DNA of 64,000 bases from an uncultured cyanobacterium (GCA_963703315.1 OY969811.1:2944001-3008000), one strand, 5' to 3'; numbered from the stretch's first letter, positions 24,378-30,338 are shown. Numbers and translations: made by a program. The notes: generated from the sequence alone by a model not told the origin.

Positions 24378-25388
24378 ATGGAAGCCACAATTTTCAGTAT
24401 TGTTTTCGCTCTTTTTAGTGGTACTTATATCTATCGCTCTTTTCGGATTATCGAAGAAGGACAGATTGCCCTAGTTGAGAGATTTGGTAAATATCAAAAA
24501 ACGATGGAACCTGGCATTAATATCGTTTTGCCATTTCTTGATCGCGTTGCCTTAGTGCAAAGCTCCCGCGAACAGGTTTTAGAAATGTCGCCACAGCCCT
24601 GCACGACTTCCGATAGCGTCAGTGTCAGCGTCAGTGGTGTGATGTATTGGCAAGTTACTGATCTCAAACAGGCAAGATATAACATTGAGAATGTCGATAA
24701 ATCGCTGATTGTGTCCCTCGCCACTCAAATTCAAACACAGATTGGACGATGCGATCTCGATAATATTATTGGTGGGCAAGAGCGCATTAACGAAGAGATT
24801 TTGCAGGGTATTTCTAGCGATACTAAAGATTGGGGAATCAGGGTATTGCGCGTGAGATTAGGGGAAATTACAATTCCTACATCGGTGCTGTTATCGATGG
24901 AAAAACAAAAAGCAGCAGAAATTGAGAAGAAAGCGATGATTTCCCTATCTGAGGGTGAAAAGACTTCGGAAATTAAAAAGGCGGAGGCAGTGGCACTTTC
25001 CAATCGGGTTCTCGCTGAATCAGAGCGCCAAGTCCGTTTAGAACAAACTGAGGCGATGGCACTATCGATTGAACGCATTGCCGATGCGATCGCCAATCAT
25101 CCGCATGGACAAGAAGCAGTCCAATATTTATTAGCTCAAAAATATATAGAAATGGGACAAGCGATCGGGCAAAGTCCCAGCAGTAAGGTTTTATTTATGG
25201 ACCCACAGTCCATTCCGGGGGCAATTCAATCGTTACTAGCGATGACTGATAGCAAGATGGCTGAGGCGATCGCTAAGCAACCTTTTGGCGCAAGCAGCAA
25301 TATTCCACCATCATTACGCAATTTACCTGAGATTAAACCTTTTAAACCACCGTCAGCAAATGAGAATATTGATCCAAGCAGTAATTGA
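24378..25388 (+). CDS. SPFH/band 7 (stomatin/QmcA-like) membrane protein
   Basis: N-terminal TM, LVERFGKY, PGINIVLPFLD, WGIRVLRV, EAVQYLLAQKY. Confidence 0.9.
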   Translation: MEATIFSIVFALFSGTYIYRSFRIIEEGQIALVERFGKYQKTMEPGINIVLPFLDRVALVQSSREQVLEMSPQPCTTSDSVSVSVSGVMYWQVTDLKQARYNIENVDKSLIVSLATQIQTQIGRCDLDNIIGGQERINEEILQGISSDTKDWGIRVLRVRLGEITIPTSVLLSMEKQKAAEIEKKAMISLSEGEKTSEIKKAEAVALSNRVLAESERQVRLEQTEAMALSIERIADAIANHPHGQEAVQYLLAQKYIEMGQAIGQSPSSKVLFMDPQSIPGAIQSLLAMTDSKMAEAIAKQPFGASSNIPPSLRNLPEIKPFKPPSANENIDPSSN

Positions 25389-25746
25389 TGGAAATGACAG
25401 AAATGAGCAAGGATGACAAGCTGAATAAGATTTATAGCTTTGCCAAAATCTTGCTCCTCCATCTGATCAAACAACGCGCCGAAAATCGCACTACGCGATC
25501 ATGGGATCTTTCAATTAAAAATTTAGTGCGAGAAATTCAGCGCACCAACCCATGGAGTAAGGCTAAAGGTAATTATTGCGAACAGAACTACGCGAGGCGA
25601 TAGAAGAGGCTTTTGAGATTGCACTAGATGCTGCTGCGGGTGAGGCTTTTGAGGGCAGATATGAGTCTGATGCGTTGGGTGCAATGGTCGATCGCGATGC
25701 AATTATCAATCAGGCGATCGCTTTAATTTCTGGTAGTAATGTGTGA
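25385..25746 (+). pseudogene. DUF29-like protein, apparently N-terminally truncated and frameshifted
   Basis: EMSKDDKLNKIYSFAKILLLHLIKQ..RSWDLSI continues in another frame from about 25585 as ELREAIEEAFEIALDAAAGEAFEGRY...ISGSNV*. Confidence 0.7.
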
Positions 25747-25783: not shown

Positions 25784-26414
25784 ATGGAAATTATTACTCA
25801 TCTTATTGTGGCTGCGATCAAGATCATTGTTGATTCTGGGGTATTAGGTAAGATTGGCGATGGTGCAATAGCTAAAGTTGGTGAAAATGCTGTTGATGGT
25901 GTTGGCAACCTGTCTCAGAGATTATGGTCAATGCTAAGTTGATTCTGGGGTATTAGGTAAGATTGGCGATGGTGCAATAGCTAAAGTTGGTGAAAATGCT
26001 GTTGATGGTGTCGGCAACCTGTCTCAGAGATTATGGTCAATGCTAAAGCAGAAAGCTCCTGATACTGATACGGTCAAGAAATTGGGTACAGGAAAAGAGG
26101 TTGATTATCAGCAAGCGGTGATTGATGTAGAGGCGATCGCTGATGATCCTGATGTGGTGAAGTTGTTGGATGAGGTGCGATCGCTACTATCCAGCAACAA
26201 GGAACTAGCAGATAAGGTTGAGGCTTTAGCGGCACAAGTTAAATCTAAAAATATTCAGGTAGCAGCTAAAGACTTTAAGTCGGATGAGTTGGAATTTGGA
26301 GGCAATCAGAAAATATCGTCAACTGAGTCTAAGGCGGTTAATAAACAAACTGGATTTGATAGTGTGAAGATTAAAGGTAAGGCTACGATCAAACTCAATC
26401 AACAAATTAATTAG
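25784..26414 (+). pseudogene. Bell/HeLo-like putative effector with C-terminal amyloid-like motif, frameshifted by an internal duplication
   Basis: Removing one 109-bp copy restores a 173-aa ORF MEIITHLIVAAIKIIVDSGVLGKIGDGAIAKVGE...LNQQIN*. Confidence 0.65.
25829..26046 (+). repeat. 109-bp tandem direct duplication
   Basis: 25829-25937 and 25938-26046 are identical except one base (gttggc vs gtcggc). Confidence 0.95.
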
Positions 26415-26606
26415 GTGATTACTATGCTCGAAGCTCAAGATTTACGACCTTTGCTCAAGGAGTTATTGCGTGAAATGTTTACGCAGGAGCGTGATTTGTT
26501 GGCTGAGTTGATTTATGAGGTTATGGAGGATGTGGCGATTGCTAGGGCGATCGCTGAGGGTAAGGATAGCGAAAATGTTGATCGAGATGAAATCTTAAAT
26601 TTATGA
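26415..26606 (+). CDS. Small acidic antitoxin-like protein with no adjacent cognate toxin
   Basis: 63 aa, EVMEDVAIARAIAEG..VDRDEIL pattern typical of RelE-associated antitoxins; stop overlaps the NLR start (ATGA). Confidence 0.55.
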   Translation: MITMLEAQDLRPLLKELLREMFTQERDLLAELIYEVMEDVAIARAIAEGKDSENVDRDEILNL

Positions 26607-28933
26607 GCGATAAATATAATCAAACAGGAATTAGCGGTTCTACCTTTGGCGATAACGCTCAAATTGAGATTAAGCAGGAGATTAAAGCATCACGCCAAAA
26701 TCAAGCAATTCCTAGCAATGTACGGCATGGTTCACCCAACTTTGTCGGGCGAGAGGAAGAACTTGCAGAGATTCATACAAAACTGCAAGCGGGTCAGGGT
26801 GTAATCGTCTGTGCGGTGGAGGGGATGGGTGGTGTCGGTAAGACCGAACTTGCTCTGCAATATGCGACTCGCTATCAACAGGAATATGTGGCGCAGTATT
26901 GGTTGTCATTGCGGGAGATGGGATTGGCTCAGGCAGTGGTGACGATCGCTAGTCCTTATCTTGACTTACCCGAATCAATGCGATCGGCTAGTCTAGATCA
27001 ACAAGCAGCATGGTATTGGCAAAACTGGTTGCCTGAGACTGGCAAGCTATTGGTGATTCTCGATGATGTACCGAAGGCGGAGAGCATTCCCAATGTTGCC
27101 ATGCCCATCGATCCGCGTGTGCGGGTATTGGTAACGACGAGAGAACGGGAATTGAATGTGGGTTTTGAGTCTGTGCCTCTGGATGTGTTGTCAGAGGAGA
27201 AAGCACTGGAACTGTTAAGAAAAATAGTTGGCGCGGCAAAGGTAGATAAAGAACTTGTCACTGTCAAAGAGATTTGCAATACTCTGGGTTATTTGCCTTT
27301 GGGCTTAGAGTTAATTGGTGAATATCTGAGCAAAAATCGCTTTCTGACTTTTGCCAAGTTACAAGAAAGGTTAAATCTTGCCGATGAATCAATTGCACGG
27401 GAACGCAAGTATAGGTTTTATGGCGATCGTGGTGTGGAAGCAGCAATCCAACTGAGTTGGGATGACATCAGTGCTGGCTCTCAGAGAGTGGCGATGTTGT
27501 TAGGGCTGTTTGCACCTGTTGAGATTTTGTGGGAGTTGGTGGCTGAGATTGGAGCAAGTGCCGAAATTACGGAAGCAGAACTCAATGAGGCTAGAGGTCA
27601 GTTAGACAGTTTGCATTTGATTCAACCAACTGATGAAGAATGCAACTTTTATAAGATTCATACGCTAGTGCGTGATTTCTTTCGTACCAAGCTATTAAAA
27701 GCTGAAGAGAATCATCAGTTTCGGCAAGCATTTGTAACCAGTTTGCTGGCTATAGCTAAAGAAATACCCCAATCACCAACGCGAGATTTGATTGCAAAGA
27801 TAACTCCAGCTATTCCTCATTTAGATTTGTTGAGTCGCGAAATGCTGAGTGATATTCTCAATCGTGAAGAGGATTTGGTGTGGGCGTTCTTAGGAATTGC
27901 TTTTTACTATAATGGTCAAGGGCTATATGATTTGGCAATTCCACATCTAGAAAACTGCCTCAAATCTACGGAGTCATTATTAGGTGTCACTCATAGAGAT
28001 GTTGCACTTACCATGAGCAACTTAGCCGCAAACTACATAAAAACAAGGCAATATCAAAGGTCAGAGACTCTCCTTCTGCGATGTATAGAGATTTATCAAA
28101 ATACATCAAGAGAAGATGATCCTGAACTAGCACCAGTTTTTAACAACTTAGCCTCACTGCAAAAACAAAAGGGTAATTGGAACAAGGCTTTATATTATTA
28201 TCAAAAGTCTCTTGTACTTATTGAGAAAAAGTGGGGAAATCAGCATATAAAGGTAGCCACTATCTACAACAATGTTGGAGGAGTTTATGAATCGCTATGT
28301 GATTATGAACAAGCTGAGATGTTTTTTGTACTGTCGCTCAAAATAAGGGAAAGTTTTCTGGGTGCAGATCATCCAGATGTAGCACAAAGTCTTTGTAATC
28401 TTGCAGGAATTTACAGATTACAAAATAAACGTATCGAATCAGAAAACCTCTACATCCAATCAATTAAGATAAGAGAAAGTAAGCTAGGAATAGATCATGT
28501 TGATGTTGCTATTACCCTCAATAACCTTGCACTACTTTATTATGATTGGCAGAGATATTCTGAGGCAGAGTTTCTATTAAAAAAATCTCTTTTTATTAGG
28601 GAACGTCAAGTAGGAGCAGACCATCTTGATGTCGCCCAAAGTCTTAACAATCTTGCTTCACTGTACTACTTTCAAAGGAATTATAGCGAAGCCGAACCGC
28701 TCTATCTGCGATCGCTTTCCATTAGGGAACGTCAACTAGGAGAAGACCATCCCGATGTCGTCACTAGTCTCGACAATCTCGCAAGTTTGTACGAGTTGCA
28801 AGGAAGATATGAGGAAGCAGAGCCACTCTATGTAAAAGCATTAGAAATTCTGGAAGTTTCTCTAGGAATGGAACATCCAATTACACAAAAGTGTCGCGAT
28901 AATCTCCAGTCTCTACGCGATCTACAAAACTAA
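26603..28933 (+). CDS. NB-ARC (STAND) NTPase with TPR repeats (bacterial NLR)
   Basis: FVGREEEL, Walker A GMGGVGKT, Walker B LVILDDV, VTTR, LGYLPLGL, HTLV, then 42-aa TPRs (HPDVAQSLNNLA type). Confidence 0.93.
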   Translation: MSDKYNQTGISGSTFGDNAQIEIKQEIKASRQNQAIPSNVRHGSPNFVGREEELAEIHTKLQAGQGVIVCAVEGMGGVGKTELALQYATRYQQEYVAQYWLSLREMGLAQAVVTIASPYLDLPESMRSASLDQQAAWYWQNWLPETGKLLVILDDVPKAESIPNVAMPIDPRVRVLVTTRERELNVGFESVPLDVLSEEKALELLRKIVGAAKVDKELVTVKEICNTLGYLPLGLELIGEYLSKNRFLTFAKLQERLNLADESIARERKYRFYGDRGVEAAIQLSWDDISAGSQRVAMLLGLFAPVEILWELVAEIGASAEITEAELNEARGQLDSLHLIQPTDEECNFYKIHTLVRDFFRTKLLKAEENHQFRQAFVTSLLAIAKEIPQSPTRDLIAKITPAIPHLDLLSREMLSDILNREEDLVWAFLGIAFYYNGQGLYDLAIPHLENCLKSTESLLGVTHRDVALTMSNLAANYIKTRQYQRSETLLLRCIEIYQNTSREDDPELAPVFNNLASLQKQKGNWNKALYYYQKSLVLIEKKWGNQHIKVATIYNNVGGVYESLCDYEQAEMFFVLSLKIRESFLGADHPDVAQSLCNLAGIYRLQNKRIESENLYIQSIKIRESKLGIDHVDVAITLNNLALLYYDWQRYSEAEFLLKKSLFIRERQVGADHLDVAQSLNNLASLYYFQRNYSEAEPLYLRSLSIRERQLGEDHPDVVTSLDNLASLYELQGRYEEAEPLYVKALEILEVSLGMEHPITQKCRDNLQSLRDLQN

Positions 28934-29418
28934 TGAATATGACTCCTAAAAGTATTGTGACTATTTATGACAAACAAGGGCGTGATTACCAAATTGAAGT
29001 TAATGAGCATGAGTCCATTCTTTCGCTTAAAGTTTATCGTTCGTTGGATTGTGTTGGACTAAGGGATATGGTCGGTCATATCGACTGTGTTTTTGAGTAT
29101 CCTAATGAAATGGTTCTAGGAGATATTCACTTTGAAGACAAGATAGACCGTAACCGACTAAAACGCATTTATGCATTTTTTCATCAAGAACCGAAAAACT
29201 ACCGCAGGCTGAGACTAGGAACTGCCACACTAAAATTTCTCATCAAATATATTAAGGAGAAAGGAATCAAAAAGCTTCATGGGTCAATAACTCAACGCGA
29301 TCTTACTGCTAACCCGAATCTAATCAAATGGTATCGAGATAATGGTTTTACAGTAGAAGCTCTAACGGCTCAAGAAATAGACAATAGTGTAGCCAAAATC
29401 TGTCTTTACCTGCTATAA
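28933..29418 (+). CDS. GNAT-fold hypothetical protein
   Basis: YRRLRLGTATLKFLI and LIKWYRDNGF resemble GNAT motifs A and B; TAATG overlap with the NLR stop. Confidence 0.6.
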   Translation: MNMTPKSIVTIYDKQGRDYQIEVNEHESILSLKVYRSLDCVGLRDMVGHIDCVFEYPNEMVLGDIHFEDKIDRNRLKRIYAFFHQEPKNYRRLRLGTATLKFLIKYIKEKGIKKLHGSITQRDLTANPNLIKWYRDNGFTVEALTAQEIDNSVAKICLYLL

Positions 29419-29444
29419 CGCCTAAAAACTACTTGACTGTAAAG

Positions 29445-29479
29445 GCGATCGCGGGTGTATTTTGGTTTTGATTTAGGCG
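29445..29479 (+). repeat. HIP1-containing direct repeat, copy 1
   Basis: GCGATCGCGGGTGTATTTTGGTTTTGATTTAGGCG. Confidence 0.85.
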
Positions 29480-29487
29480 TGGAATTG

Positions 29488-29898
29488 TTACTGAATCTGT
29501 AAAGTAAATTCTTGTATTTCTCTATTGCTAGCAGAATAATAGCTAACATTACCATCAGCAATCCTCACCACCTTTCCCATCCGCTTTGCTTTTACATTAA
29601 ACTCAGAGTTACGGAAGAGATTTCTGAGTAGAAGAGAGATTTCGGAAGCACGAGAATCTGGCAAATTAAAGCAGACTATACAAAAATATTCACTTATCGC
29701 TACTTTTCGCCAAAAATCCCGCTCATTGATAGTAATAAATGCAGGCTGCGCTTCTTTTCGCAACAACATAGGAATCGCTTCATCTTTAATAATCGAGTTA
29801 GGGCGCAAGTCCGTAATAAAGCAGACATTACCCTGATACCACTTGCCGATCGCCTGTTCTAGATTCGCTCCTAAAAGTTGTTCGTCAAGGACAATCAT
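29488..29898 (-). CDS. PIN-like (DUF5615/VapC-like) toxin
   Basis: MIVLDEQL, IKDEAI and FITINERDF acidic PIN pattern; overlaps the DUF433 gene stop. Confidence 0.7.
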   Translation of the reverse strand: MIVLDEQLLGANLEQAIGKWYQGNVCFITDLRPNSIIKDEAIPMLLRKEAQPAFITINERDFWRKVAISEYFCIVCFNLPDSRASEISLLLRNLFRNSEFNVKAKRMGKVVRIADGNVSYYSASNREIQEFTLQIQ

Positions 29899-30176
29899 GC
29901 TGCACTCAAAATAGGAAGACTCTCAAGAAAATGAGTTGTCACAACTTGAATCGCCTCAGCGATCGCCTCACGCGAAACCCTTCCCCGAAAACCAAGCACA
30001 ATATTTTCAACATTCTCACCCTTAGCTAAGCGCTCCATCACACCCGCAATCTCAATCCGAGTGTACTTAAAAGTTGGGCGATCGCCACAAACTCCCATAG
30101 CCCGAACAACATACTGCCCTAGTGGATAGTAGCTATAGGATTCGCCATTAATTATTTCAGTGACAAGCGATCGCAT
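29895..30176 (-). CDS. DUF433 family antitoxin
   Basis: GVCGDRPTFKYTRI..VMERLAKGE..VSREAIAEA. Confidence 0.8.
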   Translation of the reverse strand: MRSLVTEIINGESYSYYPLGQYVVRAMGVCGDRPTFKYTRIEIAGVMERLAKGENVENIVLGFRGRVSREAIAEAIQVVTTHFLESLPILSAA

Positions 30177-30338
30177 ATAAACTTTTTCATCCAAAGATTT
30201 TAAAACAGTCATCTCCCAAACCAATAATAAACTTTCTTCTTGTCAATACAAAAGCCATATTTTTGTAATTATATCACGGCAAAATTGCGCCCAATCCAAG
30301 TAGATTTTACGCACATCCATAATTTTTAAAGTAGCCAA

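What the first reader, a model, noticed from the sequence alone, without database searches (positions are those of the whole stretch)
25784..28933. Candidate amyloid-signalling NLR/effector pair sharing a 25-aa motif
Seen: the last 25 aa of the small upstream protein (26337-26411, VNKQTGFDSVKIKGKATIKLNQQIN) align without gaps to the N-terminus of the NB-ARC-TPR protein (26612-26686, KYNQTGISGSTFGDNAQIEIKQEIK). Seven positions are identical (Q,T,G,A,I,Q,I), with F/I, I/F and L/I swaps and an alternating beta-strand pattern. The small protein has a weaker pseudo-repeat just before this (KNIQVAAKDFKSDELEFGGNQKIS). It also has a hydrophobic Gly-rich N-terminal helix followed by a helical domain. 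The NLR has no N-terminal effector domain, only this peptide. Established: fungal NWD2/HET-S uses the same logic (one repeat on the NLR, two on the effector), and Bell-domain/BASS gene pairs are described in filamentous bacteria. Inference: this is a prion-like immune or cell-death switch. I do not recognise the QTG-x9-AxIxxxQxI motif as a named family.
Basis: partly seen in the sequence, partly recalled or inferred. Interest (0 to 1): 0.88.

Follow-up and report, generated by a model that had tools for sequence, protein, structure and literature searches.

The report
Cyanobacterial amyloid-switch pair, effector broken
This is a cyanobacterial immune sensor and cell-death effector of a known amyloid-signalling type, with a slightly shortened shared tag, but in this genome a short duplication has broken the effector gene, so the local switch is probably dead.

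Summary
The NB-ARC-TPR gene is intact, with about 35 residues ahead of its nucleotide-binding domain.

The effector is a Bell-domain protein: a 61%-identical homologue and its NLR are in the published BASS dataset. The motif is nearest to BASS4 but one residue shorter in all three repeats; exact strings were not found in that dataset, and formal membership is inconclusive.

Sequence similarity within the pair is weak (shuffle p about 0.04). Co-occurrence supports it: this NLR head alone follows this effector tail in 6 of 8 loci and other tails in 0 of 20, across different spacers, while tails are swapped freely among Bell domains.

Verdict: a variant of a known system, probably inactive here. 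The more novel lead lies in relatives and elsewhere in this genome: NLRs and small proteins carrying two or three different amyloid motifs in tandem, a possible relay network. The scan's index held no look-alike.

The parts
25385..25746 (+). Remnant of a DUF29-like gene, 5'-truncated and with a 4-nt deletion
   Evidence: DNA alignment to homologues; an intact homologue matches PF01724 DUF29, E 2.6e-7
25784..25942 (+). 5' part of the Bell-domain effector gene; reads 52 aa, including the hydrophobic first helix, to a premature stop
25829..26046 (+). 109-bp tandem duplication (two copies, one mismatch at 25903/26012) that shifts the effector frame
   Evidence: junction and raised-depth unitigs in run X1, single copy in run X4
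25941..26414 (+). 3' part of the effector: open 157-aa frame with the rest of the helical Bell domain and the amyloid-type tail; first ATG at 26040 gives 124 aa without helix 1
   Evidence: 61% identity over 108 aa to the L043 protein, whose tail is in the published Bell-side set
26247..26318 (+). Effector pseudo-repeat R1; acidic in relatives (mean net charge -5), drifted to -1 here
   Evidence: strand-turn-strand in the model of intact homologue P0014
26337..26411 (+). Effector repeat R2, basic (+3), BASS4-like and one residue shorter than the canonical repeat
26424..26606 (+). 60-aa RelB-like antitoxin ORF with no toxin partner; its stop overlaps the NLR start
   Evidence: PF25734, E 1.7e-12; followed by a ParE/RelE-type toxin gene in L002 and L059
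26612..26686 (+). NLR N-terminal motif R0 (single repeat)
26603..28933 (+). Intact 776-aa NB-ARC-TPR NLR-like protein (Walker A aa 74-81, Walker B aa 149-155, 42-aa TPR repeats in the C-terminal half)

Best explanation
This is a BASS-type amyloid-signalling cassette of a Pseudanabaena-like cyanobacterium. In the intact form found in relatives, the TPR array senses a cue (probably infection; inferred). The NB-ARC domain then oligomerises and stacks the single N-terminal R0 motifs into a cross-beta nucleus. That nucleus templates the two C-terminal repeats (acidic R1, basic R2) of the Bell protein, which frees its hydrophobic first helix to damage the membrane and kill the cell. Shown here: gene anatomy, Bell-family identity, co-occurrence of head and tail classes, and a predicted helical bundle plus two strand-turn-strand units. 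Inferred from BASS1/3/11 and HET-S work: amyloid formation, templating, membrane attack and defence. In this genome the 109-bp duplication separates helix 1 from the tail, so the cognate effector is most likely not made and the local switch is probably inactive (about 70%). Family-level reading about 80%.
For: (1) The L043 homologue (61% identity) has a tail identical to Bell-side entry A0A256BCT7, and its NLR start is identical to NLR-side entry OYQ63523.1 in the published BASS dataset. (2) In 31 distinct effector/NLR pairs the mean cognate tail-head score is 48.4 against 32.2±2.7 permuted; 0 of 20000 permutations reach it. (3) The window-type head as sole motif follows the window-type tail in 6 of 8 loci and other tails in 0 of 20; all 8 window-type tails precede an 18-span head. 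(4) The match holds over three different toxin-antitoxin spacers and a fourth unclassified spacer. Tail class is not clustered on the Bell-domain tree: 16 changes against 15.4 shuffled. (5) An AlphaFold2 model of intact homologue P0014 (122 sequences, pLDDT 68.8) gives helices over 4-116 and strand pairs at 118-140 and 149-171. (6) R2 scores best on a canonical BASS4-type profile; 6 of 4954 background termini score as high. (7) Broken state; run X1 holds the junction unitig and the repeat unit at raised depth; the upstream DUF29-like gene is also damaged.
Against: Pair identity is 28% (7/25), below the 43-56% of pairs shown to cross-seed in 10.1101/2020.01.06.895854, though close to the about 30% quoted for HET-s r0 against r1/r2 in PMC8086366. 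Shuffle p is about 0.04, and the R2 profile ranks R0 1508 of 2477. Window-type tails score higher against the dual-motif heads of BASS5 loci (47.7) than against their own neighbours (39.2), and the global permutation signal comes largely from BASS3 and BASS5 pairs. Three of 8 canonical BASS4 effectors precede 18-span heads, so length matching is not strict. Motif classes were defined after seeing the data, the loci are kin, and all five window-type heads in the tree sit on one NB-ARC clade. In the sections I read, no BASS4-type motif was tested experimentally.
Confidence: 0.7

Rival explanations
1. The NLR still signals in this genome, in trans. Its R0 seeds the related first motif of the dual-motif NLRs elsewhere in the genome, whose second (BASS5-type) motif activates the intact Bell-BASS5 protein. 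Or the duplication collapses in some cells and restores the gene.
For: The genome has an intact Bell gene with a BASS5-type tail (C1:1065658-1066089) and two NLR frames with dual heads (C1:1060382-1063894 and C1:38839-41229). The window NLR is intact. Eight distinct dual heads and relay-like ORFs with two or three motifs occur in relatives. The duplicated copies are 99% identical.
Against: No interaction data. R0 differs from the first motif of the dual heads in the middle of the repeat. The small multi-motif ORF has no homologue in this genome. An IS630-like insertion (family name from recall) interrupts the second locus between the Bell and NLR genes.
Confidence: 0.15
2. The head-tail match is inherited linkage. 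Tail, spacer, head and NB-ARC move as one block, the window-type head has drifted and no longer templates this tail, and the NLR acts through some other partner.
For: Weak pair similarity. Window-type heads are confined to one NB-ARC clade. A stray piece with the last bases of the tail, the toxin-antitoxin pair and a degenerate head start lies in L114, so such blocks do move.
Against: The spacer was exchanged at least three times with the match kept. The same RelB-like spacer also joins BASS5 tails to heads that contain BASS5, and no incompatible combination was seen among those loci. The head is conserved at 72-92% identity among window-type members.
Confidence: 0.1
3. The duplication is an assembly error and the source strain has an intact, working pair.
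For: Run X4, from another study, has one contig without the extra copy that runs into the same NLR start. Most homologous Bell genes are intact. The X1 junction unitig has 30 letters on each side, one short of the tool's 31-letter rule, and X1 may be the source sample.
Against: X1 holds a 60-nt unitig that exists only if the junction does (depth 6.7), and the 109-nt unit at depth 15.3 against 9-10 in the flanks. Neighbouring decay in the DUF29 remnant and R1 drift fits a real lesion. Other relatives have broken Bell genes too (L020, L026).
Confidence: 0.07

Closest known systems
Bell-domain/NLR gene pairs with BASS motifs (10.1101/2020.01.06.895854; dataset in PMC8086366 supplement 1)
   Same: Small helical protein with a hydrophobic first helix and an acidic residue 2, C-terminal motif shared with the N-terminus of a collinear NB-ARC-TPR gene within 5 kb, filamentous cyanobacterial host; close homologues are entries of the dataset.
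   Different: The effector gene is frameshifted here. An antitoxin-like gene separates the pair (188 bp, against 10 bp or less in 57% of published collinear pairs). The exact motif strings were not found in the searchable part of the dataset.
BASS4 (cluster C06; mapping inferred from matching cluster sizes)
   Same: Two repeats on the effector and one on the NLR; Q-x-x-hydrophobic-x-x-V-x-I-x-G-x-A-x-I pattern shared with cyanobacterial C06 entries; best-scoring class for R2.
   Different: Q-to-Q span is 17/18/18 residues (R1/R2/R0) against 18/19/19 in canonical Pseudanabaena BASS4 pairs; the Gly-Asp turn before the last strand is missing; R0 does not score better on BASS4 than on other classes.
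Bab/Agp (BASS11) abortive-infection system of E. coli (10.1101/2024.11.07.622273)
   Same: Bell-type effector with a C-terminal amyloid motif matched on a sensor's N-terminus; MEPIS-like start in most family members.
   Different: The sensor is NB-ARC-TPR rather than TPR-GreA/B-PIN; the motif family differs; there are two repeats; function here is untested.
Fungal NWD2/HET-S (HRAM)
   Same: One repeat on the NLR and two on the effector; about 30% identity between r0 and r1/r2. Opposite charges on the two repeats recall HET-s salt bridges (recalled, not from a call).
   Different: Bell domain rather than HeLo, with no direct sequence homology according to PMC7889193; NB-ARC-TPR rather than NACHT-WD.

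Membership tests
Bell/NLR BASS gene pairs | Effector homologous to Bell-domain proteins | tested here: met
   61% identity over 108 aa to the L043 protein, whose tail equals Bell-side entry A0A256BCT7; 164 representatives at E<=1e-3, of the 150 listed mostly short proteins with BASS-like tails
Bell/NLR BASS gene pairs | Hydrophobic N-terminal helix, acidic residue at position 2 or 3, helical bundle | tested here: met
   E2 and hydropathy 2.02 in the 52-aa piece; helical bundle in the P0014 model. In this genome the helix is cut off from the tail.
Bell/NLR BASS gene pairs | Collinear NB-ARC/NACHT-repeat gene within 5 kb with no N-terminal effector domain | tested here: met
   188 bp gap; NB-ARC from aa 51, TPR repeats
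Bell/NLR BASS gene pairs | Motif shared by effector C-terminus and NLR N-terminus and co-varying across pairs | tested here: met
   6 of 8 against 0 of 20; permutation 0 of 20000. The single pair is weak (205 of 5000 shuffles reach its score).
Bell/NLR BASS gene pairs | Intact effector ORF joining Bell domain and motif | tested here: not met
   109-bp duplication, stop after codon 52; intact in relatives
Bell/NLR BASS gene pairs | Amyloid fibrils, prion propagation and NLR-to-effector seeding | not testable with these tools
   Requires experiments
BASS4 (C06) | Match to the BASS4 profile on both sides | tested here: inconclusive
   The authors' HMMs were not available. On a narrow profile from session proteins: R2 5.3 bits (6 of 4954 background termini as high), R1 2.8 (42 of 4954; a BASS7-type profile gave 4.5), R0 1.0 (170 of 4954; no better than other classes)
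BASS4 (C06) | Two pseudo-repeats on the effector | tested here: met
   compare C06 entry A0A2S6CW54
HeLo/HELL/Babybell fold | Structural match to a solved HeLo, MLKL, CC or Bab domain | tested here: inconclusive
   Moderate-confidence model; best Z 5.6, plant resistosome chain 6j5t_G at Z 5.3 (rmsd 4.2, 77 aligned), within the noise for helical bundles
Bab/Agp-type antiphage system | Phage-triggered abortive infection | not testable with these tools
   Requires infection assays

The most novel reading that the evidence does not exclude
Pseudanabaena runs a combinatorial amyloid-signalling network rather than isolated gene pairs. Bell domains swap among at least four amyloid tails. NLRs carry two different motifs in tandem. 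Small non-Bell proteins carry two or three motifs (this 18-span type, BASS5, BASS3) and sit between a BASS5 effector and a BASS3 NLR, as relays that convert one amyloid code into another. The window's NLR, orphaned by the duplication, could feed this network through its 18-span motif.
Probability: 0.25. Interest if true: 0.72.

Novelty: new variant of a known kind. Interest (0 to 1): 0.38.

Why it matters
At the level of the finding it adds a shortened BASS4-like motif and a natural loss-of-function allele to a described system. The function of Bell/NLR pairs was called unresolved in 10.1101/2024.11.07.622273, and I saw no test of a BASS4-type motif in the sections read. The Pseudanabaena allele series is the useful part: near-identical Bell domains with different tails, matched heads, a one-residue change in repeat length, and dual- and triple-motif proteins. 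It would let one test directly what sets specificity in amyloid templating, and whether bacteria relay signals between amyloid codes.

Tried and rejected
Complex prediction of tail (3 copies) with head (3 copies): no answer, score 0.02 against a mark of 0.32; no evidence either way.

First AlphaFold2 run on 9 sequences: pLDDT 42, unusable. Fold searches: no Foldseek match at E<=0.001 and no Z>=8; Bab, HeLo and MLKL were not among the rows shown, which excludes nothing. PDB sequence search with the Bell profile: best E 0.52.

Pfam, NCBIfam and PADLOC gave no family for the effector. The NLR hit only a generic PADLOC TPR model and scored under the NCBIfam FxSxx cut-off. The ESM Atlas gave unnamed cyanobacterial clusters at 0.93-0.94 and one cluster with 18% HetE-N at 0.91, a lead only.

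The promoter scan found nothing above chance. The loose BASS4 regex gave mostly noise and was ignored. The X2/X5 joint skipping 26593-28894 has unknown sequence between and was not interpreted. Taxa of the more distant 18-span tails (P0132, P0141) stay unknown.

Rejected: a new motif family unrelated to BASS, because the pattern, two-repeat layout and genomic interchange with canonical BASS4 pairs tie it to C06; and a new kind of system, because the homologues are published.

Full report
OBSERVATION. The NLR is an intact 776-aa NB-ARC-TPR protein with about 35 residues before the nucleotide-binding domain. Two things were not reported. First, the small gene is broken: a 109-bp tandem duplication (25829-25937 / 25938-26046, one mismatch) gives a stop after 52 codons and leaves the tail in another frame, whose first ATG yields 124 aa without the hydrophobic helix. 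A single-copy allele would have 173 codons. Second, a RelB-like antitoxin ORF lies between the genes.

IS THE BREAK REAL? I laid 4 of the 22 listed runs, all as contigs. Run X1 is near-identical and may be the source sample. Run X4, from another study, has one 1307-nt contig that skips the extra copy and continues into the same NLR start. So the intact allele exists in nature and the duplication is probably real here. The upstream DUF29-like gene is truncated and frameshifted. R1 has drifted from the family: net charge -1 against a mean of -5 in 26 relatives.

IS THE MATCH MORE THAN CHANCE? For the pair alone, barely: score 31, reached by 205 of 5000 shuffles. A profile of 6 distinct relatives' R2 ranks R0 1508 of 2477 N-termini. 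The comparative evidence is stronger. Homologues occur in 19 of 36 same-genus genomes and 0 of 24 others searched with this query; named hits are mostly Pseudanabaena. From loci L001-L077 I kept those with a full tail and an NTPase gene in view, dropped five rows with no clear NLR start (L025, L038, L045, L051, L052) and collapsed duplicates, leaving 31 pairs. The mean cognate score was 48.4 against 32.2±2.7, reached by 0 of 20000 permutations. Among the 28 pairs with no second effector between, the window-type head alone followed the window-type tail in 6 of 8 and other tails in 0 of 20 (Fisher p 7e-5). The loci are kin and the classes were drawn after viewing, so this p overstates. Two checks reduce the linkage worry. 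Tail class is not clustered on a 27-row Bell tree (16 changes, 15.4 shuffled), and the match persists over different toxin-antitoxin spacers. Against: window-type heads sit on one NB-ARC clade, 3 of 8 canonical BASS4 tails precede 18-span heads, and window-type tails score higher on dual heads than on their own neighbours.

WHAT IT IS. The effector belongs to the Bell family as published. The L043 protein (61% identical) has a tail identical to Bell-side entry A0A256BCT7, and its NLR start is identical to OYQ63523.1 in supplement 1 of PMC8086366. Other tails and heads in my loci match clusters C03, C06, C07 and C12. I map these to BASS3, 4, 5 and 7 by matching cluster sizes to that paper's Table 1; this mapping is my inference. 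The window's repeats follow the cyanobacterial C06 pattern but are one residue shorter in R1, R2 and R0 than canonical Pseudanabaena BASS4 pairs (read). The strings GKATI, GDNAQ, KVAGKA and NQQIN were not found in the held, cut supplement file; that set is largely redundancy-filtered, so this is not proof of absence. A home-built profile puts R2 nearest BASS4 but does not resolve R1 or R0. The tail type is common: 27 of the 120 top homologues. A model of intact homologue P0014 shows a helical bundle followed by two strand-turn-strand units.

MECHANISM. By analogy with tested BASS1/3 pairs and Bab/Agp: the TPR array senses, NB-ARC oligomerises, R0 nucleates, R1/R2 are templated, helix 1 is released and the cell dies. 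Each step is inferred here. The opposite charges of R1 and R2 fit alternate stacking. Identity of 28% is below the 43-56% of tested BASS pairs but near the HET-s figure. In this genome helix 1 and the tail are on separate frames, and no other Bell gene with this tail was found, so the local switch is probably dead.

BEYOND THE WINDOW. The genome has an intact Bell-BASS5 gene and two NLR frames whose heads carry an 18-span motif followed by a BASS5-type motif. Eight distinct dual heads occur in relatives. In L023 and L063 a Bell-BASS5 gene is followed by a small non-Bell ORF ending in two or three different motifs and then by a BASS3-headed NLR; L064 has the same three-motif ORF after a Bell gene. 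This looks like a relay. I did not find it described in the passages read or in searches; figures and bioRxiv supplements were not seen and may mention it.

PAPERS SEEN. 10.1101/2020.01.06.895854: abstract, all Results, first part of Discussion, passages. 10.1101/2024.11.07.622273: abstract, two of three parts of the main section, Discussion, passages. PMC8086366: Materials, passages, supplement 1 parts 1, 40, 42 and 53 of 241, and two term searches. PMC12261475 and PMC7889193: passages only. The scan's index had no look-alike by place or sequence; a word search gave two notes on other BASS-related loci.

VERDICT. A real feature and a variant of a known system, probably inactivated in this genome. 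Interest 0.38. The relay network is the lead worth following.

Noticed in passing
L063:996-1517 (+); L064 from about 1934 (+); L023:887-1339 (-); L066 from about 793 (+): Small ORFs with a roughly 95-aa domain (no Pfam hit for L063) ending in tandem motifs: three in L063 and L064 (18-span, BASS5-type, BASS3-type), two in L023. In L023 and L063 they lie between a Bell-BASS5 gene and a BASS3-headed NLR; candidate amyloid relays. No homologue in this genome.
   Followed up: partly
G000:C1:1060382-1066726 (-): Second locus: domainless BASS4-type tail remnant, DUF29-like gene, intact Bell-BASS5 gene, HicAB-like pair, IS630-like insertion (family names from recall), and a 1171-aa NLR frame with a dual 18-span + BASS5 head.
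   Followed up: partly
G000:C1:38381-41229 (+): Third NLR frame (797 aa) with a dual head, overlapping an upstream 166-aa ORF that the Bell profile did not hit; its partner is unexplained.
   Followed up: no
L002, L004, L009, L012, L016, L017, L018, L073: Eight distinct NLR N-termini with two different motifs in tandem. The published entry OYQ63523.1 has this layout but is listed under one cluster only.
   Followed up: partly
L024 / L040: Two Bell genes in tandem (BASS4-type, then BASS3-type tail) ahead of one BASS3-headed NLR.
   Followed up: no
loci L001-L073, between Bell and NLR genes: The spacer is nearly always a toxin-antitoxin-like or DUF29 cassette (RelB/ParE-type, nucleotidyltransferase/HepT, HicAB-like, DUF29), unlike the mostly adjacent published pairs.
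   Followed up: partly
L114:495-1049: Stray piece with the last bases of a tail, a complete antitoxin-toxin pair and a degenerate NLR start, without Bell or NLR genes.
   Followed up: partly
window 26593-28894: Contigs of runs X2 and X5 join across this span at high depth with unknown sequence between, so the NLR may be absent or replaced in those strains.
   Followed up: no
window 28933-30224: A 161-aa ORF overlapping the NLR stop (no Pfam hit) and an opposite-strand DUF433 gene with a 136-aa partner; the same pair follows a broken Bell gene in L026.
   Followed up: no
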